Shown: positions 3,654 to 58,124 of the stretch, piece by piece
How positions within the stretch are numbered: the first letter of the stretch is position 1
How the letters are laid out: each line of letters opens with the position of its first letter
Virus record (IMG/VR): IMGVR_UViG_3300046170_000323
Source: a virus
Lineage: Duplodnaviria; Caudoviricetes
Strand: one strand, 5' to 3'
DNA: 64,000 nt
The notes under the pieces: model-generated
What the model was told of the DNA's origin: nothing
The model's database searches: none
Seen by the model: the letters and a program-made list of their open reading frames with translations, nothing else
Made by a program: the position numbers and the translations under genes

Positions 3654-3692
3654 TCGGTTCACTCTCCCCAGAATTAGGCATTATTTTCTTTA

Positions 3693-17500: not shown

Positions 17501-20500
17501 CACGTTTGTGCCATTTTCTTCAGCACCGTATTGCATATCCCAAGATACTGCATCAAGGATGTGAGAGATATCTCTTTCACACTTCGCAACATCATATGTT
17601 AGAGATGGATGAACGATTGCGATATATGCAGTTGTTTCTGCCTGTAAGAATGCTTTGTTTGCTTGCAGGTTTTCTCTTGCACGAATACCGTTTGAATATC
17701 CATCTGCAGACCAGATTGGTGTGGTGTTTGCATTTGGATTTGTCATCATATCAATGATTGATTCGAACCCTTGATCAAGTTGTTCTTCAAGAAGATATGT
17801 ATCATCGTACTTAGATAGTACTTTCTCTTCTTTGCGGATGATGCCTCTCAGTTTGTCTTTAACAAATCTTAGACCACCTACCAACTCACTGATCTGAGTT
17901 TCACGAGTACGAGTTGCACCTGCAGTTCCTGTCAAGTAAGAAGTTGCAGCCTGAACGAGTGGATACTCCTGACCAGTAAATGGTGTATTAGGTGAAGTCC
18001 ACTTGACCGCATCGATTAGGAAACCTGTGTCTCTGAAACACTTATCACCATCGTAAGTATAGTATGAATCATTCAAGAAGGCAACAGTTTCTTCAATCAA
18101 GAACTTACGGTTTGACTGAATTTGATCACGTGCAAATGTTCTAAGTGGAGTGTATGTTGGAGCATCTGCGACTGCAGGGATGTTTTCGTTTGTACGATCA
18201 TCCACAATATTTGCAATTACCAACATCAGATCCTGAACTCTCTGCGCAACCTGTGTAGATGTTGCAGTACCAGAGAAGTTCTGTGCAACAGTTTGATACT
18301 GTACATGTTTGATTGCGTCTGCAGTTGCACTTACGAATGTATGTGCACCAGCGTAACCACCTGCGTTGAATCCAGTCAAAGTAACAGTAGTTGCATCAAC
18401 TGATTTAACAGGCCATGGAGTCAAGTATGCTGGGTCTGGATAACCATCCCCTGCGACTGCACGTGGATGTGAAATCTGAACAGTAGATGCAGTAGCAGTG
18501 TTTACACACTCGAATGTGATACCTTCAGTTTCGAACCAGATGAAATCACCTTCTAGGATATCATGCGAACCAAGAGTCAGTACCATAGATCCTTCTACTG
18601 GATCGTAAGCAACATCAGTTGGAGTGTATGCACCTTCAAAGTGTGGTTCAATAACTGTTTCCAAAACAACTTTTTCTGCACGATCTGCGAGGTGGGTAAA
18701 TGCCGCCTGTGTTGCATCGTACTGATATTCTGGTAACAAGTTGATAGAGTTAATGAAGTACGCTTCTGCAGCCTTGACTGTTGCAGCGTTACCACCGTAG
18801 AGTACATCTTCAGAAACCGCATCGACCAAGTAACCAGTGTCACGAGTACATTTAGACTGTTGGAAACCAACACCGTTATATGTTGCGTTAATATACTCAG
18901 TTACTTCTGTCTGTAGTTTCTCTGTTAGACCATTGATAAGTTTAGTTGCAGTTTGGAACTCTTCTGCATATCCAGTGTTGCCTGGCCCAAACTCGAATGG
19001 TGAGAACTTCGAAGTTCTGTATGCCTGTTGTGGGCCACCAACGTTGTAAGAGATGAGACCACCTTGTGCACCATCGATACCACCAGAACCACCTTTAACA
19101 ACTGCTTCAAGTGCAGTAGAACCACCACCGACAATTGTACCTTTTGCAGCAGTCTGATAGAATGCAGTTCCAATATCGTTTGGTTCAATCTCTGCAGGGA
19201 GACGTAGTAGTGTATCTTCTTCAATAGAGTCAGAAACAATATTGACAAGATCTTCTACTCGTTGACCCATAAAGTCAGAGAAGTATTTCTTGATTGCACC
19301 AGTTGTTGCAGATACAAACCCATGTTCTTCTTCATAACCACCTGCATCACCCACATCTAGTGTGATAGTATTTGCAGTAGTCGCAAGAACACGAACTGGT
19401 TTTTCGTATACTGGATCAGTTGGACGTGGATGTATAATCTCTTGAACTGGTGAACCACAAGACAATGTGATTGACTCTGGATCAAAGATCATGTAATCAT
19501 CTTGTACAAAGTTGTGCGCTTCACCAAGATCGATAACCATGATACCAGAAATTGGATTGTATGTCACATCAGTTGGTGTGTATTCTACATTAGTCCAAGA
19601 TGTAGGAGTAACAGCATTACCAGTTGTAGGAGTAACAGTTTCGTTACGTGCAAGTTTCTTGGCAACGTTTGCAATATGCTGGAACGCTTCTGCAGTAATA
19701 TGTCTTTGTTCTACTGGAAGAACAGAAACTGCGTTTTCAAAATAAAGTCTTGCAACGTTGATAGATGCAACGTTTGAACCATGTTGGATATCATAAGATG
19801 CAGCGTCAACTAGAACTCCGACATCTCTTTCGCATTTTGCAACATCGTATGTGAACGATGGATACTCAACTGCCAACCATGCAGTGATTTCTGCCTGTAG
19901 GAATGCTTTGTTAGATTGAATGATACCACGAGTGTTCAATGCATCGTTAGACACATATGAGTCACCGAAGTTGATTACATCTGCGGCACTTGTACCGTTT
20001 GTTACGATATCGATAACTTCATCAAATGCAGCTTCAGAACGTGTCTGTGCAGTACCTGATATTTTCGCAGATACCTGTTGTTTCAACCATGTGAATGCAC
20101 CAACTGTTTCAGTTAACTGATCGTTAACAACTGTGTCTGCACCTTGAGTACCGATACGATAACCTTTACCCATGTAAACAGCGTTGTAGTTAGAACCAGT
20201 AAGAACGTCACGTTTTACTGCATCGATAAGGAACCCTGTATCTCTTTCACACTTCGCACTGTCATAAGTGAAGTAAGTGTTTGCAAGATATCCGACAACT
20301 TCATTTGCAAGGAAGTCACGGTTCGCTTGAAGTGTTTCGAATGCGTTTACTTCATCTACGTTTGCACGAAGTACCGCAACCGCATTATCTGCGACACGTA
20401 CGAATGTATGTGCACCACCAGTACCAACACCCACATTTACTTGGATTGTATTAATATCAGGCGTTGCAGTAATTGTCAACGGTTTTCTGTATGGTGGATC

Positions 20501-23500
20501 TGATGGACGTGGATGAGAGATCTCTGATAGGTTGTTGTCAGAACCACATGTGAATGTGAACGATCCTGGCATCAGTTCTACACGATCCCCTGCACTCAAA
20601 CCATGATTTGAAATAGTCAGAGTAAATACACCAGTTCCTACGGTGTATGCAACACCAGTTGGAGTCTTGAATTCTTCGATCATCGCTGGATCTGAGAATG
20701 TTACTACGTCATCACGTACCGCACCTTCTGTTGCACGTACGAATGTGTGTGCAGTACCATTTGCATAACCACCCACATTAATAGTGAATGTGGTTTCAGT
20801 TGCAGCCTTGATCTTAATTGGTTTCTTGTTCCACGGATCACTCAGACGAGGATATGCATGTTCAGTCTGATTACCATCCAACGCACATGTGAAGACGATA
20901 CTTTCTTGTTCCAGTGCAATGTACTGACCTACTTGTAGGTTATGGACACCGACTGTAACGACCATGTCACCAGTTGCAGTATCATAAGTTGCAGTGGTTG
21001 GAGTATAAGTCTTTTTACGTGTTTCGTTGTATACAGAAACTGAGTTTGGATCTGCCTTATAGAATGTATGGACACCAGTGTATCCACCTGCATCACCAGC
21101 ATTAACTGTGATTGTAGTAAGACCAACTGCAGTAATGTCAAGTGGTTTCTTGTAATTGTCTGTGTCACTACGTCTTGGATGTGAGATGACAACGTTATTG
21201 GCATCACAATAGAAACTAATAGACTCAGGCGCAAACATAACTTGATCATCAGTTGTCAGACTGTGAGTACCGATAGTGACAACCATTTCACCTGTCAAAG
21301 GATCGTATGTAGCATTCGTTGGAGTATAAGAACGACCAGAACCTTTCATGATATGAATGATTTCGTCGAATGCGTTCCCTGCAGTTCCGATTGCAAAGTT
21401 GTCATGTACCAAGTGATGTACTGAATCTACCTGTGCAGATACAAATGTGTGAACACCAGTATAACCATTTGCATCACCACTTTGGAATGTGATAGATGTC
21501 GCATCCGCTGCAGTGACAACGAATGGTTTGTTATAATTTGGATCCGTTGGGTTTGGATGTGAGTCCGTACCAATGACAGCAGTACTGGTATTTGCACATG
21601 AGAATGTAATCGCTTCTGGTGCAAGTTTGATAGAGTCACCTACTTCGATATCATGTGTACCAAGTGTAAGTGTAGTAATACCACTTAGTGGATCGTATGT
21701 TGCATCAGTAGGCGTATACTTCGCCTGTGTCATATCTGCAACAAGACCTTTAAGTTCCGACACCGCACCGACTGTTTCAGGCAACTGATCTCCGACTACT
21801 TCAGATGCAGTACCTGCGTAGTAACCAACACCTGTCTGTACAGAGTTCCAGTTGGTTCCCAACATCATGTCTTGTTGTACTGCAGGCAAGATGTACTGTT
21901 GAACATCTCTCTCACATTTTGCACTGTCGTAGATGAAGAAGTTGTTGTCAATCCAACCCATCATATAGTCTTGGATGTACTTCTTGTTAGCCTGTAATTG
22001 TTTACGTGCATTTTTCTTGTTCGCATCAATACCAACATCGTCAGAGAATAGAATTCCCTTACCGATAACTTGTACAGCGTTTTCAAGTGCACCTGTGAAA
22101 CTATGCGCTCCAGTATAACCACCTGCATCACCTGAGTTGAATGTGATGGTATATGGAGTAATAGATGTTACCTGTAGAGCATTCTTAAACCATTTGTCTG
22201 CTGGACGTGGATGTGAAATAGACACCAACTGAAGTGTAGTAGTATTCGCACACTGATATGTCAAACCGCCTGGAGCAATCTCAATTAAGTCACCCGCTTC
22301 GATTCTGTGGATATCATCGAATGTCACAACAGTCACACCTGTAGCAGGATCATATGTAGATCCAACTGGAGTGTAGCAGTTTTCTGCAAGACGAATACAA
22401 TCTGCATCTGCAGACTTGAAGTAATGGATGTTTGTGTATCCACCAGCATTACCAACTTGAAGGACGATAGTTGTCTCTGTTACTTCAAGGATTGAAATCG
22501 GTTTCATGAATGCAGGGTCTGTAGCACGTGGATGAGTGATCTCACCATCTTTACCAGACAATCCACACTCAAATGTGATTGATTCTTTTTCGAGGATGAT
22601 CTTCTGATCTACATGGAGACGGTGTTGACCGATTTCAACTTCCATGATACCAGAGATTGGATCATACTCTACGAATGTAGGTGTATATGTTTTACGTTTT
22701 TCTTCCAATGCATCAATGATATTATCGAATGCAGAGTCAGAACGAATTGCACCAATGAACGAGTTCGCATCGATGATTTCATTTGTTTGTTCTTTTAGTC
22801 TCTTATATGCAGCGACTGTTTCGTCACGTTGGTTGTTGATAACCTTTGCAGCAGCGTTCATATAGTACGCATTACCTGCAGTGACAGAGTTGTAGTTCGT
22901 ATCCAACATTAGATCTTGTGCTACTGCAGGCAAGATGTAATCTTGTGTATCACGACGACACGCAATAGAATTGTATGCGAAGAACTCGTCGTTATCTTCG
23001 ATCCAATCGATTAATTCGTTTTCAATAAATTTACGGTTGTCTTGAATCTGTTTACGTGCATTGGTATATGCAGTTGCAGTTTCGTTGTTTCCAACTTCTG
23101 TGAATACAATAGGAGATGCATACTCTTCACCGTTCTCAAGAATGTTCAAGAGTTCGTCATAAGAAGTATTTGCACGTTCTAGAATTTCAGTATTCGCATT
23201 CGCAAAGATAGTCCCTAGACGACCTTGCAGATATCTGTTTGCACCAGCAGTCTCTTCCAACTGTTCGCCAGGCACAACATAAGAAATTGGTGAACGATAA
23301 GTGATACCAGACAAACGACCCCAATAGTTTGAACCAGTCTGAATGTCTTGTGACAGTTTGTCAAGAATGATACCAGTATCACGATAACATTTCTCTGCGT
23401 CATAACCTTGATATCCAAGTCCACCAGAAGAGGTGTTGGATGTAAGGTAATCGACCATGTCATCAATGATGTTATTGGCGTTCTGAAGAATTGAATCACC

Positions 23501-25804
23501 GAAGGCAGTATTACCACCTGCGTTTAAATCAATCTGTATAGTAGTGTCTCTTGGTGCATAGAACTGTGTAGTTCCTTTTGCCCTCATAGAGATGTCACCA
23601 AACTGTGTACCTGAGTTGTTGAGTGTAACCTGTCCACCATTCAATGCGTAGAACGCACAACGTGTGAAGATTGACAATGAACCAATACCGTTAACACCAG
23701 CACCATCACGTGCAACGTAACCGATACCGTTCTGTGTACGAGGTGTAAAACCAAATGTCAATAGGTAAGTGTAGAGTGAGTCTGGATCAAGAACACGTCT
23801 GTCTGCAAGCACACAACCACCACCACGTCCCACAAGTGGGTTCGGGAAGTCGTCAATACCGATGACTGCAATGTTACCTGTACCACCTGATTCTGAGATG
23901 ATTGTATCACCTATGTTGATTTCACCTTTTAGGTTACGAACGTAGACACGGTCATCTGTTGCAACATCTGCATCCCAAGATACAAAACCAACTGCACCTG
24001 AACCAAATACAATCTCATCACCTTCAGAGAATGTGCCTGAGTGACCAACTTCCATATAGATTTCACGTCCAAGGTCTGCGAGAGTACCTTTAGAGTTAAA
24101 TGGTTGTAGTGGTGGTTCAACATCTGCACGAAGGAAGTTTGACAACTGAGAGGAGTCACGAATGTATGGAGATCTTCTTAGTTTAGCGCCAGGACGATAT
24201 GCAATCGCAAATCCACCTTCTGGGAAATCGAAGTTATCAACTTTCCAGTTTGTGTATGAGAAACCTTGTACGTAACAACCAGAACCTACGAGAACTGCGT
24301 TTTCGAATTCATAGCCAGGCAACGCTTCGATCACTGTTGCATACTGACCAGAAGTAGATGTCAACGAACAATCATCTGGAAGGGCGATACCACCTTTTGT
24401 GTAGTATGTGCCAGGCCCACATGAGATGTGAACCGCATTGTTTACATCGTTACGTGAATAAACTCCACCCGCTTTTTCTAATGCGAGTTCTGCAGCACGT
24501 TCTAGTGTACGAACTGGTTGAAGGACTGTGCCAGGATTTCTGTCATCACCAGAAGACGCTTCAACGTGTACCTTAAGTGCCTTTGCAGTAGTCTTAGAAA
24601 TCTCATCAAAGAACTGACGATATGTGATACGTTCTGTCTCACCAGTCTTAACATTCTTAAGAGCGAACCAAGAGTTTTCATCAATCTTTGGTTCGAACTG
24701 GTTGTCGAGTTCCATGTCGAAGTCGACAAGATCTGGACGGTTGATTGTCGCATCATTGATTGCAGCATCTTCAATCTTACCACCAGTCATAGTGGATTCG
24801 GAGATACCTGTGTTTGACATTGAAGAAGATTCGATGGTTGCATCAACCAACGAGATGTCTGACAACTCACCAGTGAAGGTAGAGTTGGCAATCACTGAGT
24901 CTTTGATAAGACTATCTTCAAGTGTCGTGTTTGTAAATACGTTATTGTTACCAGTACCGTCTGAGAAATCAGAGTCGATAATGGTCATGGTATTCGCAGT
25001 AGAGTTTGCAAGTGCACCATTGACAAAGGTAGAAGAGTCAATGTCAACGTTATTCGCAGTGGAGTCAGTAATTTCACCAGTAGTGAAAGTTGAGTTCGTC
25101 ATTGCAACGTTGTTTGCAGTACTATCGAATATACCACCGTCTGTGAATGTAGACGATGTGATTGCAATATTGTTGGCAACCGAATCTCTAATGATACCCT
25201 GATTAAACTCAGAATTGTCTAGGACAATGTTATTACCAGTGCTGTCTGCGAGAGTACCGTTCTCAAAAGAAGAGTCGGTAATCGAGATATTGTTTGCAGT
25301 AGAATCAAATATTGCACCATTAGAAAATGTTGATTCAGTGATTTCTACATTGTTCGCCGTCGAATCAGTAATAGTTGAATCATCAATCGTAGAGTTTACG
25401 AGAGTAACATTATTACCGAAGACGGTATCCATTGTACCGTTATCGAAACTAGAGAATGTGATTGTTAGGTTGTTGGCGTTTGAGTCACGTAGATCACCAT
25501 CATGGAACAGAGAGGCATCAATGTCAACACGATTTACATCTGTATCATTGATTGTACCACGATTATATTCGTTATCGTTCATGATGTTGTTATTCATCAC
25601 GTTTTCGAATATAGTTGTACCAGAGATCTTACCACCAGTAATGGTGATTCGGTCAAATATTTCGTACTGGATCGCCTGAACCAGCTCTTTTCTGGTTATA
25701 TTCTTTGTACCGTCATCACCTTGTACGAGGTTAACGATGACGAATAAGTCTTCCGTCCTCGTATTGGCGCCGGTAATCGAACCTAATTCAGAAATTTTTG
25801 ACAT
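14510..25804 (-). CDS. Giant 3764-aa virion fibre/adhesin-like protein: beta-solenoid N-terminus, pectin-lyase-like region, phycobiliprotein-like and Cys/His repeat modules
   Basis: Single uninterrupted ORF following a late promoter. The repeats are visible in the translation (see findings). Confidence 0.9.
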   Translation of the reverse strand: MSKISELGSITGANTRTEDLFVIVNLVQGDDGTKNITRKELVQAIQYEIFDRITITGGKISGTTIFENVMNNNIMNDNEYNRGTINDTDVNRVDIDASLFHDGDLRDSNANNLTITFSSFDNGTMDTVFGNNVTLVNSTIDDSTITDSTANNVEITESTFSNGAIFDSTANNISITDSSFENGTLADSTGNNIVLDNSEFNQGIIRDSVANNIAITSSTFTDGGIFDSTANNVAMTNSTFTTGEITDSTANNVDIDSSTFVNGALANSTANTMTIIDSDFSDGTGNNNVFTNTTLEDSLIKDSVIANSTFTGELSDISLVDATIESSSMSNTGISESTMTGGKIEDAAINDATINRPDLVDFDMELDNQFEPKIDENSWFALKNVKTGETERITYRQFFDEISKTTAKALKVHVEASSGDDRNPGTVLQPVRTLERAAELALEKAGGVYSRNDVNNAVHISCGPGTYYTKGGIALPDDCSLTSTSGQYATVIEALPGYEFENAVLVGSGCYVQGFSYTNWKVDNFDFPEGGFAIAYRPGAKLRRSPYIRDSSQLSNFLRADVEPPLQPFNSKGTLADLGREIYMEVGHSGTFSEGDEIVFGSGAVGFVSWDADVATDDRVYVRNLKGEINIGDTIISESGGTGNIAVIGIDDFPNPLVGRGGGCVLADRRVLDPDSLYTYLLTFGFTPRTQNGIGYVARDGAGVNGIGSLSIFTRCAFYALNGGQVTLNNSGTQFGDISMRAKGTTQFYAPRDTTIQIDLNAGGNTAFGDSILQNANNIIDDMVDYLTSNTSSGGLGYQGYDAEKCYRDTGIILDKLSQDIQTGSNYWGRLSGITYRSPISYVVPGEQLEETAGANRYLQGRLGTIFANANTEILERANTSYDELLNILENGEEYASPIVFTEVGNNETATAYTNARKQIQDNRKFIENELIDWIEDNDEFFAYNSIACRRDTQDYILPAVAQDLMLDTNYNSVTAGNAYYMNAAAKVINNQRDETVAAYKRLKEQTNEIIDANSFIGAIRSDSAFDNIIDALEEKRKTYTPTFVEYDPISGIMEVEIGQHRLHVDQKIILEKESITFECGLSGKDGEITHPRATDPAFMKPISILEVTETTIVLQVGNAGGYTNIHYFKSADADCIRLAENCYTPVGSTYDPATGVTVVTFDDIHRIEAGDLIEIAPGGLTYQCANTTTLQLVSISHPRPADKWFKNALQVTSITPYTITFNSGDAGGYTGAHSFTGALENAVQVIGKGILFSDDVGIDANKKNARKQLQANKKYIQDYMMGWIDNNFFIYDSAKCERDVQQYILPAVQQDMMLGTNWNSVQTGVGYYAGTASEVVGDQLPETVGAVSELKGLVADMTQAKYTPTDATYDPLSGITTLTLGTHDIEVGDSIKLAPEAITFSCANTSTAVIGTDSHPNPTDPNYNKPFVVTAADATSITFQSGDANGYTGVHTFVSAQVDSVHHLVHDNFAIGTAGNAFDEIIHIMKGSGRSYTPTNATYDPLTGEMVVTIGTHSLTTDDQVMFAPESISFYCDANNVVISHPRRSDTDNYKKPLDITAVGLTTITVNAGDAGGYTGVHTFYKADPNSVSVYNETRKKTYTPTTATYDTATGDMVVTVGVHNLQVGQYIALEQESIVFTCALDGNQTEHAYPRLSDPWNKKPIKIKAATETTFTINVGGYANGTAHTFVRATEGAVRDDVVTFSDPAMIEEFKTPTGVAYTVGTGVFTLTISNHGLSAGDRVELMPGSFTFTCGSDNNLSEISHPRPSDPPYRKPLTITATPDINTIQVNVGVGTGGAHTFVRVADNAVAVLRANVDEVNAFETLQANRDFLANEVVGYLANTYFTYDSAKCERDTGFLIDAVKRDVLTGSNYNAVYMGKGYRIGTQGADTVVNDQLTETVGAFTWLKQQVSAKISGTAQTRSEAAFDEVIDIVTNGTSAADVINFGDSYVSNDALNTRGIIQSNKAFLQAEITAWLAVEYPSFTYDVAKCERDVGVLVDAASYDIQHGSNVASINVARLYFENAVSVLPVEQRHITAEAFQHIANVAKKLARNETVTPTTGNAVTPTSWTNVEYTPTDVTYNPISGIMVIDLGEAHNFVQDDYMIFDPESITLSCGSPVQEIIHPRPTDPVYEKPVRVLATTANTITLDVGDAGGYEEEHGFVSATTGAIKKYFSDFMGQRVEDLVNIVSDSIEEDTLLRLPAEIEPNDIGTAFYQTAAKGTIVGGGSTALEAVVKGGSGGIDGAQGGLISYNVGGPQQAYRTSKFSPFEFGPGNTGYAEEFQTATKLINGLTEKLQTEVTEYINATYNGVGFQQSKCTRDTGYLVDAVSEDVLYGGNAATVKAAEAYFINSINLLPEYQYDATQAAFTHLADRAEKVVLETVIEPHFEGAYTPTDVAYDPVEGSMVLTLGSHDILEGDFIWFETEGITFECVNTATASTVQISHPRAVAGDGYPDPAYLTPWPVKSVDATTVTLTGFNAGGYAGAHTFVSATADAIKHVQYQTVAQNFSGTATSTQVAQRVQDLMLVIANIVDDRTNENIPAVADAPTYTPLRTFARDQIQSNRKFLIEETVAFLNDSYYTYDGDKCFRDTGFLIDAVKWTSPNTPFTGQEYPLVQAATSYLTGTAGATRTRETQISELVGGLRFVKDKLRGIIRKEEKVLSKYDDTYLLEEQLDQGFESIIDMMTNPNANTTPIWSADGYSNGIRARENLQANKAFLQAETTAYIAIVHPSLTYDVAKCERDISHILDAVSWDMQYGAEENGTNVMTVNNARLYFENAVSVLPADQRGPTADVFQHIATMADNIVRLIGVSKTAGNALDPVTSGLTATSTAHGTKVEELIEIIANAVLADDGIDGLPAMVDNSVFLKSTYPSGGVMYDIIEREKGTMQSAINTYIADNYNGLAYSESKCRRDLGYIIDGISHDLQYDGNWATHKNAEIYFENAINTLPKDQRDPTRRAFMHLGKTMETVLQRLPVEPTISNRFGARFTPTTATYDPLTGIFTAEVGPHALKVGDAIWMADESIVMSCDMGSGAVNHSSPAAHHPYFRKPCPITGVTRTSITMNVGTGGTGNYPHTFVSAEVDALVQVIGNHIPQDFRHLPAVYPERTDLKGEAMKLANMIADAALAEDPSGIPARVSPDTSWVPSNIIASKNLISDISDELATKVVDYVSREWDGLSFPRGKCRRDMGFLVDAASHDVQYETNYASRISAQIYFENGVSVLPEDTRRQTADVYRTMKLLMSNIVQEIDTTNTSITTTAQDISGDPATPTEGTEVVNLIGIVEDVIREDSVAAIPALQEANTAWVSSDLVGANKLIEDNKVELADKLIEFINTEFNVLDYNKSKCRRDVGYLLDAFSYDLNYGGNSASRWNADFYFWNSVYRIPEDQREATAKSYRELGRICKKIVTGDYKGQSLKYDTATEVEANKVEGLANMFYLTQINKDTKELQTLIEPNYDWVEKPFRDAKEVILKKRGPLQYDVVRFVNATYNFVDINLTRRDAGNLLQTIVNDIKFTNPNTGQQGSTKATRTFSQSFFDQKGQQVFPVFNATTPGLRFMGTVADISARNALQSDPNLTLKPNMAWIVSDDANINFYQGTIYYWNGGAWVDDGQNNTDLLYAFYKTWDRMRDFIIANYSPDGAHSAFITALFDDCLKGNVLRPDVLTFGSLVESIAHQFNGGAAGVNRTALPLNFRNLGPATSAISSVLSEDGGRVRWSGADELNNQYFARGLRINGRTGRIEGRPFTSSVRKLARRASNSRAAVV
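15300..23500 (-). repeat. 11 Cys-bearing helical repeats with (K/A)CxRD plus one degenerate copy
   Basis: Cys codons at ~23388, 22959, 21915, 20250, 19833, 18849, 18039, 17580, 17070, 16248, 15765; the Cys-less copy INLTRRDAGNLL is at ~15310. Confidence 0.9.
16560..22700 (-). repeat. 9 beta-rich ~95-aa repeats YTPTxxTYDPxxG...H...C...HP...HTFVxA
   Basis: Nine copies counted in the translation. Confidence 0.9.
24850..25560 (-). repeat. 15-aa periodic DSTANNxxIxxSxFxxG repeats (beta-solenoid-like)
   Basis: Visible near the N-terminus of the giant protein. Confidence 0.8.
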
Positions 25805-29900: not shown

Positions 29901-32548
29901 TACCTTGCGCAGATGCCTCTTTAGGAGAGAGGATAGGAGCGCCTGGGACAAAGATCTCTGAAATGATAAGTTGATCTGTTCCCAACATTGGTGGACGTGG
30001 ATCACGTTCTTCCTGACCCTTAATATAGTTGAATTTACCATACGAGTCAATAGAAACAACGTCATAACGTGGAAGATAGTATTCGATATCTGCAGACGCA
30101 AATTGATCTGTAGATGGTAACGTATATGTACCAGAGAATGAAGGTGCAGCTGCATCGATATTATTCTGAATCGATATTGTCATAACTGGAGCAGTTGCTT
30201 TGTTCGTAGATGTGTAACTCATCGTTGACTCTTTAACGACCTGTGGTCTAAAGTCGAAACAGTCACGTAGATTGAACTTTCTACCTGATTCAGAAACATA
30301 TACTGGAATGTCTTTTTCGTCAACACCGACATAAGAGTTAACAGTGTAAAAACTTTCTGATCCAACAGGCACATTAGTTTCAAATACTTTGATTTGAATT
30401 CTAAGTTGTTCGTTGCCTGGCCTTGGTCTTCCTTGAATATACTCAATAGAAGACAGATCATAGAACTGATCTTTCTGGTTTTTATTCAGACGGAAACTAT
30501 TTTTATAGTCTTTACCGTTTGCATCTTCTAGGGCGAGAATCTCAAATACATCTGGGAAACCCAAAGAGAACCTGTCACGAGTTCCCACGTGATCAAGTCT
30601 CAACCAAACTTCTCTTGCAGCTTTCTCACGAACCACTGAGTCGATGTGTCGGTAGTCATAGTAACAGATTACACTCTGACCATTTGCAATTGCGCCTGGC
30701 TGAAGTGCAACAGTCAATTGACCATTGTTTAACTGAGTCGATGTACCTGTCACTGTTACCTTTGCACCAGTGGAAGCAATAACTAGAATGTTATGTTGTG
30801 TAACACCAAAGTCTGTGCCGGGCGCAGCAGTGATCTGGAACTCATCGTTGTTTACTGTACGAGTAGATTGTCCACGAATAGGAACATTTAAATCTGTTTC
30901 CAAAACTTCTTTGAGGTAATCCATCCCTGTGTCAAAGATGAAGGATCTCTTGTCTGTTCCTTTTAGAACGTTTCCTACTGAGATTTCACCAGTCGTTGCA
31001 CCATCAATCTTTGCAACATCAGAGAAGTCTTTACCTGCGTTAAGATCAACGCCCCAAATGTATGCACGAGTTTCTGTCAAGTTAGAGACAAAACATTCAC
31101 CAATCTTTACATTTCCCCCATCAAGGAGATCCTGAGTGGAAGAAAGATCAATATTAATATGTCCTGTGAATCCTGTTACATCAACATAGTTACCGTAGTT
31201 GAAACTGACTGGGTTTGATGTCTGAATTTCTGTGTTGGTTGTTGGTTCGACCTCAAAAGATTGTGTACCAATACTCTCTGCACGATATCCCTTTACGTAT
31301 GCAACGCCTGGATCTACGAGTATTTCAAGAGCAATCTTGTGCCAGTATGCACCATCGTAATACCAGATATCACTAGTCGCAGTGTCTGTAATCGCCAGAC
31401 CTGCTGCTGGCCACAGGGTATGCAGCATTTAGTGTTGCTTGAGGATCTCCAATTACATTTACATCTGCAATTGAACCAATTGAAGTGTATACTGGATAGT
31501 TTCTTTCTACAGAGACAGGGAAATCACGAAGGATATAGTTACCTGACTCTTCGTATGTGCGTCTTGCAGTAACGTCACCAAGGACATTATAGGCAGAAAC
31601 GTCACGTTGTCTAACCGCATTTCCGTTTTGATAACGAATTAATGCGAAGAACGTGGAATCATCTTCTGCTTCTGAAGGTGTTAGTTTAGTTAAAACTGGT
31701 ACGAGTCTTAGACGATCTGCGCCTGGCGCATTCTCGTTTGTTGATCCGTTAGCGTTGTCATACAAACTTGTGTCTTGCAAGTATGAAACATTGTCTTCTT
31801 GAATGCGATAACCAACTGAAAGATCTGATGGTTCTGCAGAATACTTTTCTACAACAAGGATTTGTTCATCTGCGTAAATGAAGTGTCCCTTCTGGAACAC
31901 AATGCCTGGCGCAGAACTGATACCAAACGATTTACCTGTAGGGATGAGAGATTCTGCGACAACGTTAATCTCATCAATACCTTCTTCCACTGATGTGAGT
32001 GGTTCAACTGTACCTGCCTTATACTGATACTTGTCAACACGGATTGTTTCACCTGCTTCGAATTCTTTTGCAGATACAGCTGTGTTCAAGTAACGAATAA
32101 AGAAAGTGTTCAAATTAGGTGGACGAGTAACAAACCCACGTGATGCCGAGATCACCTGTGCGCTAACACCAGATGACTGACCCACAAGGACATACACCAC
32201 GTCCACTTCTGTTTCAATCCCCCCTGTAGTCTCAGTCGTAGTGATACGAGTACTGACATATGCCTCTGGATCGAAATATGTTGTTCCGTCTGATTGTGCC
32301 TCACGGTTTTCAACCTTCACGAACCTTAAATCATTAAGGTCTGTAAAAGTACAACCTTTAATAATACTACCTTCTTTAAATAGGTTGTCACCAAACTGTT
32401 CGACTTGGTTCTGCAACATGGTTTGCAACTGAGTGAGTTCTCTTGCCTGAACTGCATAGCCAGGTTTGAACAACACCCGATAGTACTGGTTCTCCAGTTG
32501 ATAATCGTCGAAGTATGGGGCAACATTTAAGTCTGTATTAATGGGCAT
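26968..32548 (-). CDS. Large virion structural protein (DUF4815-like), ~1859 aa; +1 frameshift at ~31410
   Basis: N-terminus MPINTDLNVAPYFDDY...YYRVLFKPGYAVQARELTQLQTMLQNQ typical of T4-like marine phages. ORFs 31373-32548 and 26968-31428 join at GTGGCCAGC; span 3n+1. Confidence 0.85.
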
Positions 32549-48849: not shown

Positions 48850-48878
48850 TATAAATACACTGTGTAAACCTATTTATA
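48850..48878. promoter_or_regulatory. Face-to-face pair of late promoters TATAAATA (+, 48850-57) and TATAAATA (-, 48871-78)
   Basis: Exact consensus on both strands between divergent gp48 and gp4. Confidence 0.85.
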
Positions 48879-48898: not shown

Positions 48899-49360
48899 AT
48901 GGCATATAGTGGAAGATTCCGCCCGAAGAACCCTAGCAAGTACAAAGGCGACCCATCTAAGATTATTTATCGTAGTATGTGGGAAGTAAAATTCTTTAAG
49001 TGGTGTGACGAACATCCTGATACAATTTGGTGGCAATCTGAGGAATTGATGGTTCCTTACATGTCTCCATTAGACAATAAGATGCATCGATACTTTCCAG
49101 ATGTAATTGTAAAAATGAAACAACGTGAGGGTGCACCAAAGACGATCATGGTTGAAATAAAACCATACAAACAAACGAGACCACCAGATCCAAGGAAAAA
49201 GAATGCAACCCCTACTGGACGTGTCTCTCGTAGATATCTTAACGAGGTTAAGACTTGGGGTGTAAATGATGCGAAGTGGAAGGCAGCGAGAAGGTTCTGC
49301 CACCAACGTGGATGGGAATTTGTAATAATGACGGAGAAAGAACTCAACATCAAGTATTAG
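48899..49360 (+). CDS. gp4: Head completion nuclease gp4
   Basis: MAYSGRFRPKNPSKYKGD...YRSMWE...YFPD...VEIKPYKQT signature; ATG at 48899. Confidence 0.95.
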   Translation: MAYSGRFRPKNPSKYKGDPSKIIYRSMWEVKFFKWCDEHPDTIWWQSEELMVPYMSPLDNKMHRYFPDVIVKMKQREGAPKTIMVEIKPYKQTRPPDPRKKNATPTGRVSRRYLNEVKTWGVNDAKWKAARRFCHQRGWEFVIMTEKELNIKY

Positions 49361-49368
49361 GAACGACC

Positions 49369-49791
49369 ATGAACAGGTGGCCAAGGTACACACTATATGA
49401 CGATAACGATAAAGTTGTGTTAATTACCACATACAAAGAAATATATAATGAATACAAGAAAAGAAACGCAAAGGCAGAAGACATGATCAGATTAACAAAG
49501 TTTATCGACGAGGGAGTCAAATTAAAACTCATTCGTGGAAAAGATCAGGATGTTCTGAAGATGTGGAACAAGGGAGATCGTAAGTGGGTTGAACTGAGAG
49601 GAAAGCCTGGATTCGAAAGAAAGTACGATCCAAAGGATCCACTCCATCGTGCAATTACTGCCTTAGGAAAATCCGCAAGTATATCAGACTTTGTGAATGG
49701 TACTGAGGTTAGTATAAACCCGAAACACCCAGATGGCAAGCGTGCATTAGATACAATAAAGAAATTAATGGACGAACATGCAATCAGATAA
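49369..49791 (+). CDS. Hypothetical protein; the internal start 49483 carries a capsid-targeting-like leader
   Basis: Track ORF 49276-49791; probable starts at ATG 49369 and 49483 (MIRLTKFIDE). Confidence 0.6.
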   Translation: MNRWPRYTLYDDNDKVVLITTYKEIYNEYKKRNAKAEDMIRLTKFIDEGVKLKLIRGKDQDVLKMWNKGDRKWVELRGKPGFERKYDPKDPLHRAITALGKSASISDFVNGTEVSINPKHPDGKRALDTIKKLMDEHAIR

Positions 49792-49897
49792 ACCCATTTG
49801 CACAACCTGTGGACACCCATGTCATCGTGGTAAAGATTGTCCCGATTGTATAAATGACGTTTGTTTTAAATGTAAATGTAAAGACTGTAAGGACTAG
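49778..49897 (+). CDS. 39-aa Cys-rich metallothionein-like peptide (not in the ORF track)
   Basis: MQSDKPICTTCGHPCHRGKDCPDCINDVCFKCKCKDCKD*. 9 Cys and 2 His; fills the gap exactly, ending 2 nt before the gp2 ATG. Confidence 0.7.
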   Translation: MQSDKPICTTCGHPCHRGKDCPDCINDVCFKCKCKDCKD

Positions 49898-49899
49898 AA

Positions 49900-50508
49900 A
49901 TGGCAGCATCATTATTTAATGATATACTTTTAAGAGGTATTCGTTCGGGACAAGTGCCTGCACGTACTGATGCCGCACGTAAGTGGTACAGAGATACTGC
50001 GCAGAAGTCTGTTAAGAATGGCCCGATAAATGCAGGTAGAGTAGAACGTGAATTAAAAGACAGAGGTGCAAACACATCTGCAGTAGGTAATATGTACTTC
50101 TTTGCGTATGAGGCAAAACATGCAAAGACATTACCTTACTACGATAAGTTCCCTCTGATATTCCCAATTGGCCCTGCACCAAAAGGATTCATGGGCATTA
50201 ACATGCACTATTTACCACCTATTTTACGTGCAAAGTTAATGGATGGTCTTTACGACACCATTACAAACGATAAGTATGATACGAGTACAAAATTAGATTT
50301 ATCATATAAACTTTTAAACAGTGCGTCTAAGTTCAGAGAATTTAAACCCACTATCAAACACTATCTGACTGCTCAGACAAGATCAAGGTTTTTTTATGTT
50401 AATCCTGTGGAGTGGGACATTGCATTGTTCCTACCAACTGCGAACTTCGTTGGTGCAAGTAAAAACAAAGTATACGCTGATAGTCGTAAAATCATAAGGA
50501 ACGGATAA
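49900..50508 (+). CDS. gp2: DNA end protector gp2
   Basis: GNMYFFAYEAKHAKTLPYYDKFPLIFPI...GINMHYLPP signature. Confidence 0.95.
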   Translation: MAASLFNDILLRGIRSGQVPARTDAARKWYRDTAQKSVKNGPINAGRVERELKDRGANTSAVGNMYFFAYEAKHAKTLPYYDKFPLIFPIGPAPKGFMGINMHYLPPILRAKLMDGLYDTITNDKYDTSTKLDLSYKLLNSASKFREFKPTIKHYLTAQTRSRFFYVNPVEWDIALFLPTANFVGASKNKVYADSRKIIRNG

Positions 50509-55344: not shown

Positions 55345-55794
55345 TTATTCTGTGAGAAGTTCTTCCTTCCCAGCAACTGAACCAATAGAGATCTTTCGAG
55401 GTTTCTTTTCCTCTGGGATCACATTTTCAAGTTCTACGTAAAGGATACCGTTTTGGTATTCAGCACCACGTACTACAATTGTATCCGACAAAGTAAACTT
55501 TCTACGGAACTGTCGTGCACTGATTCCTCTGTGTAGATATTGCGCTTCCGACTTTTCGTCTTTCTTACCCTCTACAGTAAGTACACCGTCCTTGACTTCA
55601 ACATCAAGTTCATCTTGGTTGAATCCGGCAAGTGCCAGTTCAATGACGTAATTATCGTCATCTACTTTGCGTATATTGTAGGGTGGGTAGTTTGGTTGAC
55701 TTGATCCTGTTTGATGCATACGATCTAGTACACGGTCAAACCCAATAAAAAATGGATCATTAAGTAAGTCGGCAGTCATTCTGCGAGTATTCAT
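55345..55794 (-). CDS. hsp20: Small heat-shock protein (Hsp20/IbpA family)
   Basis: NYPPYNI...YVIELALAGF...YLHRGISARQFRRKFTL...GILYVEL...PRKISI. Confidence 0.97.
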   Translation of the reverse strand: MNTRRMTADLLNDPFFIGFDRVLDRMHQTGSSQPNYPPYNIRKVDDDNYVIELALAGFNQDELDVEVKDGVLTVEGKKDEKSEAQYLHRGISARQFRRKFTLSDTIVVRGAEYQNGILYVELENVIPEEKKPRKISIGSVAGKEELLTE

Positions 55795-55850
55795 TTGCTA
55801 TCTCCTTTATTAAGCAAGATTGATGTTATGTACCCGATAACGGCGTACAA
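55795..55850 (-). ncRNA. ROSE-like RNA thermometer in the hsp20 5' UTR
   Basis: UCUUGCUU-AAUA-AAGGAGA pairs the UUGCU motif with the SD, leaving a bulged G; upstream hairpin GUACGCCG-UUAU-CGGGUAC. Confidence 0.7.
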
Positions 55851-55853
55851 TGT

Positions 55854-55884
55854 TATTTATATCACAAATTGAAGGTCATGTCAA
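55854..55884 (-). promoter_or_regulatory. Sigma70-type promoter TTGACA-N17-TATAAA overlapping late TATAAATA
   Basis: TTGACA at 55884-79, 17-nt spacer, TATAAATA at 55861-54. Confidence 0.85.
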
Positions 55885-55892
55885 CCAAAAAA

Positions 55893-56294
55893 TTACTTTC
55901 TTCCTATATTATATTTTACTGTAAGATCCCATTGATCTTTTTCTTTATAAGAAATGATCTTAATGTGATTTAATGGGGCAACTGGATCCTTGGTTTTTTC
56001 TTTATCAACGATCTTGAGTAGTTCCCACTCTTCTAGTAAATTTACAATAGTGTTTCGGCGTGCTTTGTCCTCGTCTGTGAAAGTATTCTGTTTACCATCT
56101 AGTATAAACAGTTCCTTAAAATGAAGGATTGCATATCTGCCTTTTTTGTGTAGGATGTGGCAAGACTGATACAGTCTTTTTTCTTTTCGTGAAGAAATAC
56201 CAATTCTTGTGAGCGTCTCTTTAATTTTTAAAAAACTATCATCAGAGGGTAATTCAATCTCGACACCAACTCCCTTAAAAATATCTTCGTTCAT
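55893..56294 (-). CDS. regA: Translational repressor RegA
   Basis: FLKIKETLTRIGISS...LYQSCHILHKKGRYAILHFKELF...RRNTIVNLLEEWEL. Confidence 0.97.
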   Translation of the reverse strand: MNEDIFKGVGVEIELPSDDSFLKIKETLTRIGISSRKEKRLYQSCHILHKKGRYAILHFKELFILDGKQNTFTDEDKARRNTIVNLLEEWELLKIVDKEKTKDPVAPLNHIKIISYKEKDQWDLTVKYNIGRK

Positions 56295-56380
56295 AATACA
56301 TGTTCACCTTTTTTATAATTTATTGTTATGGGTGGTGTTGATCAACATAACCAACGAAAGTATTTATCAAAACGTGTTTT

Positions 56381-56791
56381 TTAACCACCAACAAATAACT
56401 TATCGTAAACATGTTCCATCTGGTCTTTACTTAGAACCTTGTAATATTGTTTTGCAACTGTTCTGTTACATTCATAAACCTTCTGGATGGCATCTAGATC
56501 TTCATTAGGTTCTGCCTTGTGCCACTTGGAGAACCGTTTGCGTTTGCGTAGTGATGCACGATAATAATCGAACTGTGCGCCTGCCATGTTGTCTAACATA
56601 GGCCAACGGATGTTCATCTCATTCGCATGAAGAATGGTATCTTCAAAGTAAGAGAACCCACGATTGACAACATAGGAATACGATGAGTATTCTTTCTCTG
56701 CAAGATCTGGGTTCTCTGCCTCACGAATGATATCCTTCTTAGAGTCTGATGCAGCATTCATGAAGTCAAAGGGCGAGAACTCTTTACTCAT
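56381..56791 (-). CDS. gp62: Clamp loader small subunit gp62
   Basis: YVVNRGFSYFEDTILHANEMN...QFDYY...RKRFSKW; likely start MSKEFSPF at 56791. Confidence 0.92.
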   Translation of the reverse strand: MSKEFSPFDFMNAASDSKKDIIREAENPDLAEKEYSSYSYVVNRGFSYFEDTILHANEMNIRWPMLDNMAGAQFDYYRASLRKRKRFSKWHKAEPNEDLDAIQKVYECNRTVAKQYYKVLSKDQMEHVYDKLFVGG

Positions 56792-57008
56792 GAAGCATGT
56801 GCTCCTCATCATCTACCATTGCATCATACTGCATCTTCTCACGTTCATACGATCCAACGAATGTCAGTTCCTCGTCATAAGAAACTACATATCCAACTGC
56901 ACGTAAGAAGTCAGTGAATGAAGTAAGAACCTCATCAAGGTCTGCATCTTCATTTAATTTCATTTCAATTGATGAACCATCAATATTATGGGTGTGACTA
57001 AATTTCAT
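56784..57008 (-). CDS. Hypothetical protein (74 aa)
   Basis: GAGG SD before ATG 57008; LDEVL..F.DFLRAVGY motif. Confidence 0.6.
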   Translation of the reverse strand: MKFSHTHNIDGSSIEMKLNEDADLDEVLTSFTDFLRAVGYVVSYDEELTFVGSYEREKMQYDAMVDDEEHMLHE

Positions 57009-57165
57009 TTTTCGCCTCCTCAATACCCTGTAAGATTAGATCAAACTCTTTTGCGCATGAAGGACAGACATCATAAGTTGCCTGTCCTTCTGCCATTTCT
57101 ACAGTCATCTTGAATGACTCTTCTTTATCGAATTGTTTTACGCAGTAGAAACATTCTGTCGACAT
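56998..57165 (-). CDS. 55-aa CxxC...CxxC zinc-ribbon-like protein (not in the ORF track)
   Basis: MSTECFYCVKQFDKEESF...YDVCPSCAKEFDLILQGIEEAKNEI*; coupled to the gp44 stop. Confidence 0.7.
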   Translation of the reverse strand: MSTECFYCVKQFDKEESFKMTVEMAEGQATYDVCPSCAKEFDLILQGIEEAKNEI

Positions 57166-58124
57166 TACTTGTATTCACTTTCAATCATAATTTCTGTCAA
57201 GTACGCCACCATGTTGATCTCACTATCAGAGGCGAAGTTTGCCTTGTACATGTAATCTGCAGTGGTGACTACAAATCCTGGCATACTACGGAACTCTACA
57301 CGTTCATCTGCAGCATCATAGATTGCACGAAACATCTCGTTCATATCCTGATCAGAATTACGTGCAACCCACTTGCGCATCTCAGTGAAGTTCTTAGACT
57401 TCAGATAAGAGAACAGTTCATCAACACTTTCTGCTTTCAGATTGACAAAGATACCTTCGTCGATTGAACCTGATGCAGCATAGGATTGAAGTTCGGTAAG
57501 TACACGACGAAAGTCTGGGAAGTATTTCTGTACAACCTTTGCAATGACTTTCTTGTCGTATGACACACCCTCTTGATCAAGGATTGCAAGAACACGTTTG
57601 TAGAACGCCCCTGCGAGTGCAGGTTTCTCTTCATTGTCAATAGAGAAGTCTATCTCAGAGAGACGTGACCTCAAAGGACTAATGATACGGTTCTTGAAGT
57701 TACAAGTAAAGATGAACCCACAATTCGAAGAGTACTCCTCAATGAAGTTACGAAGTGCAGGTTGAACATTAGTGGATGGTAGGTAGTCTGCCTCGTCAAA
57801 TATAACATATTTACGTCCACCTGTCAAGCTGACTGCAGAAGCAAATGTTGAGATATCGTAACGAACGGCATCGATGTTAACGTTGAGTGATCCATTCTTT
57901 ACGATGTAATCACAACCCATCTCTTCAAGCATTGCCTTTGCGACTGTAGTCTTACCTACGCCAGGCCCACCTGTCAAGAGAAGGTTTGGTACGTTCTCAT
58001 CCTTGATAAATTTTTGAAAGATTTCTTTTGTTTGTTGAGGAAGAATTGTATCTTCAATCAACTGAGGACGGTATCGTTCCACCCATAATACTTCGTTTAC
58101 TTTAGTAGTAAGACCTTCTTGCAT
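57165..58124 (-). CDS. gp44: Clamp loader large subunit gp44 (RFC-type AAA+)
   Basis: LWVERYRP, Walker A GGPGVGKT, IFDEAD, SRL sensor, FPDFRR. Confidence 0.97.
   Translation of the reverse strand: MQEGLTTKVNEVLWVERYRPQLIEDTILPQQTKEIFQKFIKDENVPNLLLTGGPGVGKTTVAKAMLEEMGCDYIVKNGSLNVNIDAVRYDISTFASAVSLTGGRKYVIFDEADYLPSTNVQPALRNFIEEYSSNCGFIFTCNFKNRIISPLRSRLSEIDFSIDNEEKPALAGAFYKRVLAILDQEGVSYDKKVIAKVVQKYFPDFRRVLTELQSYAASGSIDEGIFVNLKAESVDELFSYLKSKNFTEMRKWVARNSDQDMNEMFRAIYDAADERVEFRSMPGFVVTTADYMYKANFASDSEINMVAYLTEIMIESEYK

What the first reader, a model, noticed from the sequence alone, without database searches (positions are those of the whole stretch)
49778..49897. Unannotated 39-aa metallothionein-like peptide in the late operon
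Seen: 9 Cys and 2 His in CxxC, CxC and CH motifs, below the ORF-track cutoff, fitting exactly between two genes with a GGA SD-like element. The pattern differs from SmtA/BmtA as I recall them. Inference: a phage-encoded Zn/Cu buffer or metal donor, which would fit the Cu-site and Cys/His virion domains above.
Basis: partly seen in the sequence, partly recalled or inferred. Interest (0 to 1): 0.7.

Follow-up and report, generated by a model that had tools for sequence, protein, structure and literature searches.

The report
Metallothionein-like mini-protein of marine phages
The 39-codon frame is a real, conserved gene from a large undescribed family of tiny marine-phage proteins whose nine cysteines and two histidines almost certainly hold several metal ions, but whether it stores or hands over metal or only uses metal as a scaffold is untested.

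Summary
The ORF at 49778-49897 (+) is there exactly as described: 39 aa, 9 Cys, 2 His. It is a real gene. It is intact in three diverged lineages of the same phage group, with every Cys and His kept. dN/dS is 0.09-0.28 in its frame against 0.8-1.6 in the other two frames. It lies in a T4-type late operon: gp4, a 140-aa unknown gene, this ORF, then gp2.

It belongs to a large family of 35-61 aa proteins that has no Pfam or PHROG model. I found 113 distinct sequences and at least 120 IMG/VR contigs. The family is essentially phage-only. Its core is CxxCGHxCHC-x3/4-CxxCVNDVCxxCxC. Eleven ligand-type positions are conserved (median 9 Cys + 2 His). Two of them show Cys/His swaps, and the loss of one Cys comes with a gained Cys elsewhere. 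That count matches the Zn4Cys9His2 inventory of cyanobacterial SmtA, but the bacterial metallothionein model PF02069 gives no match.

So "metallothionein-like" holds as chemistry, not as homology. The proposed role as a metal buffer or donor is unproven. A zinc-knotted binding module is an equally live rival. The usual home of the family is the regA-hsp20-lysozyme-DNA polymerase region, not the late operon.

The parts
48850..48857 (+). T4-type late promoter motif TATAAATA, 42 nt upstream of gp4. A second copy on the - strand (48871-48878) faces gp48.
   Evidence: That this motif is a late promoter rests on established T4 knowledge.
48899..49360 (+). gp4-like head completion / head closure protein, the first gene of the operon
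   Evidence: phrog_218 at 4.9e-59 and PF08722 at 6e-23
49369..49791 (+). orf140: a protein of unknown family with a ~97-aa core that is widespread in uncultured marine phages. Its stop lies inside the start of the mini-gene.
   Evidence: 66 related IMG/VR loci. No Pfam hit and no GenBank phage hit. AF2 pLDDT 67.7, best fold match Z 3.9.
   Evidence: Not conserved in L006 or L013.
49778..49897 (+). the 39-aa Cys9His2 mini-protein gene, stop included
49778..49791 (+). 14-nt overlap of the mini-gene start with the end of orf140 (frame +1). It is conserved in L006 and L013, and the same 14-nt overlap with a different upstream gene is seen in L075.
49799..49888 (+). metal-ligand core, residues C8 to C37
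   Evidence: family alignment A4
49889..49893 (+). AAGGA, the Shine-Dalgarno of gp2, formed by the last two codons of the mini-gene (GAGGA in L006)
49900..50508 (+). gp2-like DNA end protector
   Evidence: phrog_429 at 4.4e-51. 53% identical to Sinorhizobium phage phiM12 gp2.

Best explanation
The ORF is a real late-transcribed phage gene, probably translated by coupling to the gene upstream. It encodes a cytoplasmic mini-protein with no signal peptide and no regular secondary structure.

It is a member of a large, undescribed, phage-only family with the core CxxCGHxCHC-x3/4-CxxCVNDVCxxCxC. Eleven conserved side chains (nine Cys, two His), possibly helped by the invariant Asp27, wrap three to four soft metal ions, most likely Zn(II). 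This would form a metallothionein-like thiolate/imidazole cluster or a string of adjoining sites.

The family is not homologous to SmtA/BmtA, so the resemblance is convergent chemistry.

My committed reading of the role is this: an autonomous metal-holding protein that captures zinc, or another soft metal, in the infected marine cell and keeps or hands it over for phage proteins.

What is shown: the gene is real, it is under purifying selection, it belongs to the family, the ligand pattern is conserved, and it has no known family.
What is inferred: metal binding, the stoichiometry, and above all the physiological role.

My sub-odds:
- real gene: 0.95
- all 11 residues are metal ligands: 0.8
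- three or more metals: 0.6
- storage or donor role: about 0.3
For: Gene reality:
- It is intact in 6 IMG/VR contigs of 3 lineages, with all Cys and His kept.
- dN/dS is 0.09-0.28 in frame against 0.8-1.6 in the other frames.
- It has been called as a protein on 13 further contigs.
- Family genes are packed with -4/-1 nt overlaps on both sides.

Family:
- The exhaustive profile search and the word-based search found 56 clusters.
- At least 120 viral contigs carry the CxxCVNDVCxxC motif.
- Only 3 true members turned up in 185,579 species genomes. One of them lies on a plain T4-like phage contig.

Ligands:
- C8, C11, H16, C21, C24, C29 and C32 are invariant in 113 sequences.
- H13 is replaced only by Cys, and C34 only by His.
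- C17 is lost in 11 sequences, and all 11 carry the extra C37. Only 7 of the other 102 do.
- The median is 9 Cys + 2 His.
- This is the inventory of SmtA's Zn4Cys9His2 cluster (PMC10119931, read).

Structure: the AF2 model has pLDDT 76.7 and no helix or strand, as metal-knotted peptides do.

Against a nucleic-acid-binding role: the family is acidic, with median net charge -3.

Neighbours: they include hsp20 in 17 loci and an IscA-type Fe-S carrier in 8. That is a proteostasis and cofactor neighbourhood.

Autonomy: the upstream partner varies, which suggests the protein acts on its own.
Against: - No metal-binding measurement exists.
- No known metallothionein model matches.
- N26, D27, V28 and G12 are as conserved as the ligands. 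This could mark a binding surface rather than a buffer.
- About a third of members carry a conserved C-terminal tail of the DIPDSF type, which looks like a docking motif.
- The domain occurs fused to the C-terminus of membrane or coiled-coil proteins. That is odd for a soluble buffer.
- The C17/C37 coupling is not corrected for phylogeny, and a tree from so few columns could not count events.
- The gene is single-copy and only 39 aa, so it would hold little metal in bulk unless very abundant.
Confidence: 0.5

Rival explanations
1. The metal ions are only a scaffold, making this a zinc-knotted binding module. The rigid mini-domain displays the invariant G12 and V-N-D-V loop to bind a protein. 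That protein could be the one encoded just upstream (orf140 here, the phrog_18771 membrane protein in the nearest relatives) or a conserved host or phage target. The module would regulate or inhibit it, as many small early phage proteins do.
For: - Non-ligand residues N26, D27, V28, V25 and G12 are invariant or nearly so.
- The start overlaps the upstream gene by 14 nt here and in L075.
- Sister lineages with the same gp4-orf140-gp2 order lack the mini-gene, but their orf140 ends in an in-frame four-Cys tail whose Cys are conserved.
- An orf140-core gene lies within 1 kb of a family member in 6 of 78 loci, and in L081.
- Five different fusions exist with the domain at the C-terminus.
- Many members share a C-terminal DIPDSF-type tail.
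- The weak structural neighbours are binuclear zinc fingers and zinc ribbons.
Against: - The upstream partner is not conserved across the family. A dedicated partner encoded upstream therefore cannot be general.
- Eleven ligands in 27-30 residues are more than a scaffold of two zinc sites needs.
- Apart from five residues, the surface is variable and acidic.
- The four-Cys tail shows no detectable DNA kinship to the mini-gene.
Confidence: 0.35
2. An iron-sulfur or redox-active mini-protein. The Cys/His set would bind a [2Fe-2S] or [4Fe-4S] cluster, or act as a thiol redox switch, in step with the phage's Fe-S carrier and chaperone genes.
For: - An IscA-type gene (PF01521) lies within about 0.5 kb in 8 loci, and hsp20 in 17.
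- Cys/His sites are often ambiguous between Zn and Fe-S (own knowledge).
Against: - The spacing is unlike the ferredoxin CxxCxxCxxxCP pattern (sequence).
- No Fe-S family was hit among 113 members.
- Eleven ligands exceed what one cluster needs.
- Neither iscA nor lysozyme was found in this window.
Confidence: 0.08
3. The Cys-rich frame is not a separate protein. It would be a C-terminal extension added to orf140 by a programmed +1 frameshift within the 14-nt overlap.
For: - The frame is +1 relative to orf140, and the overlap is conserved.
- Relatives have an in-frame Cys tail on orf140.
Against: - There is no slippery or hungry-codon context at ATC AGA TAA (sequence).
- The ATG is conserved.
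- More than 100 relatives are stand-alone ORFs with their own starts behind unrelated genes.
Confidence: 0.03
4. A chance open frame, or a conserved DNA element such as the ribosome site and spacer for gp2, with no protein product.
For: - It is very short.
- The RNA-library contigs laid did not reach past 49793 (this is no evidence of absence).
- Its 3' end does carry the gp2 Shine-Dalgarno.
Against: - Purifying selection is specific to this frame.
- Family-wide conservation of Cys and His holds at about 40% identity across hundreds of contigs.
Confidence: 0.02

Closest known systems
Cyanobacterial/bacterial metallothionein SmtA/BmtA (Pfam PF02069, PDB 1JJD)
   Same: Both are small cytoplasmic proteins whose ligand inventory is exactly nine Cys plus two His (Zn4Cys9His2 in SmtA; PMC10119931). 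Both have a CGH-x-C motif and CxC elements. Both come from marine or aquatic microbial settings.
   Different: There is no sequence relationship: no PF02069 hit for 113 members or on the phage record. The phage protein is shorter (39 against 56 aa). Its Cys spacing differs, being dominated by CxxC. The model shows no zinc-finger-like hairpin or helix. It is phage-encoded. Its metal content is unmeasured.
Alpha domain of vertebrate metallothionein (M4Cys11 cluster); comparison from my own knowledge
   Same: Both have eleven ligands in about 30 residues, no regular secondary structure, and a fold that would depend on metal.
   Different: The vertebrate domain has all-Cys ligands with CC and CxC motifs. 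It is not homologous. The phage family has two His and five strongly conserved non-ligand residues.
Retroviral nucleocapsid CCHC zinc knuckle (PF00098; MoMuLV NCp10, PDB 1a6b)
   Same: Residues 2-22 give the best, though non-significant, PDB sequence match (E 0.13). C8, C11, H16 and C21 have the C-x2-C-x4-H-x4-C spacing, and the flanks QLD...KDCP are shared.
   Different: There is no Pfam hit even at E 10. In much of the family the H16-C21 spacing is 5. The family is acidic, whereas nucleocapsid knuckles are basic RNA binders. Seven further ligand residues are left unexplained.
Zn3Cys9-type cluster domains (pre-SET, CXC/tesmin) and binuclear fingers (LIM, RING, PHD); comparison partly from my own knowledge
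   Same: Both use dense Cys clusters as a structural knot inside a binding module. LIM, RING, PHD and MYND are the weak Foldseek neighbours.
   Different: All matches have E above 2 and TM below 0.35. Loop lengths are far shorter here. The phage protein stands alone at 35-61 aa.
Other small Cys-rich phage mini-protein families
   Same: All are tiny, phage-only, unnamed and presumably metal-stabilised.
   Different: Those families have 4 or 8 Cys and occur in multi-copy, fast-evolving arrays. This family is single-copy and has 11 ligand positions and a nearly fixed core.

Membership tests
Bacterial metallothionein BmtA/SmtA (PF02069) | Match to the family profile above its cut-off | tested here: not met
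   No hit at E<=10 for the peptide or its orthologues. No PF02069 hit among 113 family members at E<=1. PF02069 found nothing in the nearest phage record (E<=1), while among 14 control genomes it rang in four, Synechococcus elongatus among them, and was over its cut-off in one.
Bacterial metallothionein BmtA/SmtA (PF02069) | Ligand inventory of nine Cys and two His forming a Zn4 cluster | tested here: inconclusive
   The count is met: 9 Cys + 2 His here, and this is also the family median. The SmtA inventory is taken from PMC10119931. Whether these residues form a Zn4 cluster cannot be read from sequence.
Metallothionein as a phenomenological class | Low mass, very high Cys content, Cys in CxC/CxxC motifs | tested here: met
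   39 aa, 23% Cys, four CxxC and one CxC. Family median Cys fraction is 0.205.
Metallothionein as a phenomenological class | Few or no aromatic residues, and conservation confined mostly to Cys | tested here: inconclusive
   There is one Phe here and the family median is 2 aromatic residues. G12, V25, N26, D27 and V28 are also nearly invariant.
Metallothionein as a phenomenological class | High metal content in metal-thiolate clusters (spectroscopy, stoichiometry) | not testable with these tools
   Needs purified protein, native ESI-MS and 113Cd NMR.
CCHC zinc knuckle (PF00098) | C-x2-C-x4-H-x4-C spacing and a profile match | tested here: not met
   The spacing is present in this peptide. However, there is no Pfam hit at E<=10, the best PDB match has only E 0.13, and the H16-C21 spacing varies in the family.
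CCHC zinc knuckle (PF00098) | Basic, nucleic-acid-binding character | tested here: not met
   Net charge is +1 here. The family median is -3, and 71% of members are acidic.
New phage family CxxCGHxCHC...CxxCVNDVCxxCxC (unnamed) | Invariant C8, C11, H16, C21, C24, N26, D27, C29, C32 plus G12, H13, C15, V28, C34 | tested here: met
   All are present in the window peptide. V25 is Ile. C17 is Arg, as in 10 other members, all of which have C37. Profile E-value on the nearest record is 3e-17.
Binuclear cross-brace zinc fingers (RING, PHD, LIM, MYND) | Structural match of the predicted model | tested here: inconclusive
   Foldseek best hit has E 2.6 and TM 0.31. VIA-align gave no Z>=2. Atlas gave only unnamed clusters above TM 0.5.
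RiPP precursor / secreted disulfide-rich peptide | A leader or signal peptide before the Cys-rich core | tested here: not met
   Only 7 residues precede the first Cys and there is no hydrophobic stretch. No modifying enzyme is adjacent in the window.

The most novel reading that the evidence does not exclude
This is the first metallothionein family encoded by viruses. It would be a convergent Cys9His2 multi-zinc (or Cu) cluster protein that hundreds of marine T4-like phages use to seize and redistribute trace metal in metal-poor ocean hosts. In this clade it would have been moved into the late operon to serve virion assembly.
Probability: 0.25. Interest if true: 0.8.

Novelty: new variant of a known kind. 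Interest (0 to 1): 0.55.

Why it matters
If the protein binds three or four metal ions, marine phages carry their own metallothionein-type protein, a class of auxiliary gene that has not been described. Two full-text searches found no paper on a phage metallothionein. This would bear on how phages obtain zinc, iron or copper for their many metal-dependent proteins in trace-metal-limited seawater.

Even if the metal is only structural, the family is a compact, widespread, sharply defined 27-residue domain with 11 ligands. It is absent from Pfam and PHROGs. It is easy to synthesise and to test.

Tried and rejected
- GenBank phages, nucleotide level: megablast of the locus found nothing.
- GenBank phages, protein level: tblastn of the peptide and of the family members P0023 and P0032 gave nothing useful. 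BLAST's low-complexity filter may hide Cys-rich hits, so this is not evidence of absence.
- Cultured phages: a profile search of four genomes (C48C1, HTVC008M, S-RIM2, phiM12) gave only a weak look-alike in HTVC008M, at E 0.034.
- Complex prediction: orf140 (residues 39-140) with the peptide and 3 Zn returned 'no answer', score 0.00. This is evidence neither for nor against binding.
- Fused four-Cys tail as a deletion remnant: I tested whether the tail of orf140 in L007, L011 and L015 is a remnant of the mini-gene. DNA alignment scores were no better than shuffles (MAFFT), so I dropped the idea.
- Fold searches, peptide: no match in PDB Foldseek, VIA-align wide or the Atlas.
- Fold searches, orf140: best Z was 3.9.
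- Atlas feature search: it returned only unnamed clusters.
- RNA libraries: short contigs from four marine metatranscriptome studies cover gp4 and orf140 up to 49793, but not the body of the mini-gene. Depth is low and DNA carry-over is possible, so nothing can be concluded about expression.
- TATAAATG inside the ORF (49852-49859): it looks like a late promoter but is not conserved in L006 or L013.
- Independence of the C17-to-Arg and C37 changes: a FastTree on the 36 remaining columns was too poorly resolved to count independent events.
- phrog_18771 partner: it was not found in the 56%-complete nearest record, which is uninformative.

Full report
**1. The observation**

The frame at 49778-49897 on the + strand translates to 39 residues. 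Cys falls at positions 8, 11, 15, 21, 24, 29, 32, 34 and 37, and His at 13 and 16. An in-frame stop four codons upstream fixes the start at the ATG.

The ATG lies 14 nt inside the end of the upstream ORF, which is in frame -1 relative to it. The TAG ends 2 nt before the ATG of the next gene. The last two codons of the ORF (AAG GAC) form the AAGGA ribosome site of that next gene.

Cys-rich short frames are not unique in the window. Three ORFs of 30-60 aa have 8 or more Cys, against 0.06 in shuffles. The other two are antisense shadows of long genes.

**2. Surroundings**

The neighbours form a T4-type structural module:
- gp53 and gp48 on the - strand;
- then on the + strand gp4 (head completion, 48899-49360), an unknown 140-aa gene (49369-49791), the mini-gene, gp2 (DNA end protector, 49900-50508), a tail-tube-like gene and gp26.

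The divergent gap before gp4 holds two TATAAATA motifs, one for each direction. No terminator-like site occurs on the + strand before 51109. The mini-gene is therefore most probably part of a late transcript.

The nearest named phages are the Sinorhizobium phiM12 group, with gp2 53% identical. In phiM12, gp4 and gp2 abut directly. So orf140 plus the mini-gene are an insertion specific to this clade. The phage is common in seawater metagenomes, being held in runs of 17 studies.

**3. Is it a gene?**

A search for relatives of orf140 in IMG/VR gave 66 loci. Six of them, from three lineages (identical, 82% and 92% at the peptide level), keep the mini-ORF with the same overlap and with all nine Cys and both His. 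In these loci gp2, gp4 and orf140 are 79-90% identical, so the peptide is conserved as well as the essential genes beside it.

Nei-Gojobori counts give dN/dS of 0.20, 0.28 and 0.09 in the ORF's frame. The other two frames of the same stretch give 0.8-1.6. The numbers are small: for example 8 synonymous against 5 non-synonymous changes, where sites stand at 17 against 85. Even so the direction is clear. Public gene calls hold the same protein on 13 further contigs.

**4. A large family**

An exhaustive profile search of 1.8 billion representatives found three more distant small proteins. A profile of these found 56 clusters of 36-75 aa, none with a Pfam domain or a name other than 'hypothetical'.

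Of the 79 loci read, 78 gave an ORF with the full pattern. The same pattern found only 8 places in one genome each of 185,579 prokaryote species. Three of these are true members, and one lies on an obvious T4-like phage contig binned into a MAG. The family is thus essentially phage-only.

In an alignment of 113 distinct sequences, the conservation is as follows:
- C8, C11, H16, C21, C24, N26, D27, C29 and C32 are invariant.
- G12, H13, C15, C17, V25, V28 and C34 are 90% or more conserved.
- Position 13 is His, or in 4 sequences Cys.
- Position 34 is Cys, or in 8 sequences His.
- Position 17 is Cys, or in 11 sequences (including this one) Arg.
- All 11 Arg17 sequences carry an extra Cys at 37, against 7 of the other 102 (Fisher 5e-11, not corrected for shared ancestry).
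- The one sequence lacking C15 also has C37.

The median member has 9 Cys and 2 His and a net charge of -3. None of the 113 members matches any Pfam or PHROG family.

**5. What the pattern implies**

Ligand-type swaps (His for Cys and Cys for His), and a lost ligand made good elsewhere, are what metal ligands do. They keep the total at eleven. Eleven ligands within 27-30 residues are too many for two ordinary zinc sites. Two arrangements would fit:
- three sites, with the invariant Asp27 or one bridging thiolate as the twelfth ligand;
- a four-metal cluster of the M4L11 type.

The second arrangement is the inventory of cyanobacterial SmtA, Zn4Cys9His2 (PMC10119931). By my own knowledge it is also the ligand number of the vertebrate alpha domain.

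The AlphaFold2 model built on the 113-sequence alignment is moderately confident (pLDDT 76.7) and has no helix or strand. It matches nothing solved. The best, non-significant, sequence match in the PDB is the CCHC zinc knuckle of a retroviral nucleocapsid protein (E 0.13). The acidic character of the family argues against a nucleic-acid-binding role.

So 'metallothionein-like' is a fair description of the chemistry. Membership of the SmtA/BmtA family is excluded by the profile tests.

**6. Context and role**

In most phages the family lies in the replication and early region. In a clean example (L208) the order is clamp loader, regA, hsp20, mini-gene, lysozyme, IscA-like gene, DNA polymerase. 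Among 78 loci the recurrent neighbours are lysozyme (27), DNA polymerase (18), hsp20 (17), regA (14) and an IscA-type Fe-S carrier (8).

In this window, gp44, regA and hsp20 lie only 5.5 kb away on the other strand. The mini-gene and orf140 have moved between gp4 and gp2. In one relative (L067), orf140 follows regA directly.

The upstream, often overlapping, partner is not constant:
- orf140 in this clade;
- a phrog_18771 membrane protein in the peptide's nearest relatives, and fused to it in one protein;
- other genes elsewhere.

Sister lineages with gp4-orf140-gp2 but no mini-gene carry a conserved four-Cys tail on orf140. I could not show that this tail derives from the mini-gene.

These facts pull two ways. 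The changing partner, the hsp20 and IscA company and the variable acidic surface fit an autonomous metal-handling protein. The invariant G and VNDV residues, the DIPDSF-type tails of many members and the C-terminal fusions fit a zinc-knotted binding module.

I rank the metal-holding or donor reading slightly behind or level with the binder reading as to physiological role, at about 0.3 against 0.35. I commit to the shared core, a multi-metal Cys9His2 mini-protein, as the best-supported mechanism.

**7. Verdict**

It is a new family within a known kind of protein. It has no described viral counterpart that I could find, and it is directly testable with a synthetic peptide.

Noticed in passing
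window 49369-49791 (+): orf140 belongs to a widespread family of uncultured marine phages. The core is ~97 aa, with invariant residues including E-x-R-G-K, F-E, Y-D, L-H, G-K and S-D-F-V-N-G. It has no Pfam model, no GenBank phage hit and no fold match (best Z 3.9). The window copy and L006 carry an extra ~38-aa N-terminal extension. In L081 the core is part of a 346-aa protein.
   Followed up: partly
L007:3079-3420, L011:1383-1742, L015:3085-3423: In sister lineages with the same gp4-orf140-gp2 order but no mini-gene, orf140 ends in an in-frame tail C-G-Q-C-x4-C-x-C. The four Cys are conserved while the residues between them vary.
   Followed up: partly
family loci, e.g. L084:9831-9965, L149:5758-5883, L107:8794-8952: About a third of family members end in a conserved tail of the type D-I-P-D-S-F-T-K-E-N, which looks like a short docking motif. 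The window peptide lacks it.
   Followed up: no
L094:2119-2451 (-), L075:1248-1580, P0099: The peptide's nearest relatives (Arg17/Cys37 subtype) sit behind, and overlap, a ~110-aa single-pass membrane plus coiled-coil protein (phrog_18771, function unknown, faintly holin-like). In P0099 the two are fused into one 151-aa protein.
   Followed up: partly
window 48850-48857 (+) and 48871-48878 (-): Two back-to-back TATAAATA late-promoter motifs lie in the 62-nt divergent gap between gp48 and gp4.
   Followed up: partly
window 55348-58094 (-): clamp loader gp44, regA and hsp20 run on the - strand and converge on the structural operon. Neither lysozyme nor the IscA-like gene, which follow hsp20 in relatives, was found in the window.
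   Followed up: partly
window 2247-2390 (+), 17300-17452 (+), 10453-10998 (+): Other Cys-rich or Pro/Gly-rich short frames are antisense or off-frame shadows of long - strand genes (522-3662, 14510-25804, 10152-14052). The last region looks collagen-like.
   Followed up: no
L205:1501-1626 (Pelagibacter phage HTVC008M, record 30270-30395): A distant look-alike ORF has CxxCGHxSHC at the front and CxxCxCxxC at the end but no CVNDVC core (profile E 0.034). It may be a remote branch of the family in a cultured phage.
   Followed up: no
L208 (NYWG01000007.1), L212/L213 (FZLS01000023.1, FZLS01000007.1): The contig filed under a Verrucomicrobiales MAG (L208) is plainly T4-like phage DNA, with gp44, regA, hsp20, lysozyme, iscA and gp43. 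The family members on two contigs of a Rhodobacteraceae bin may have the same origin, but only an IscA-like match was seen there.
   Followed up: partly
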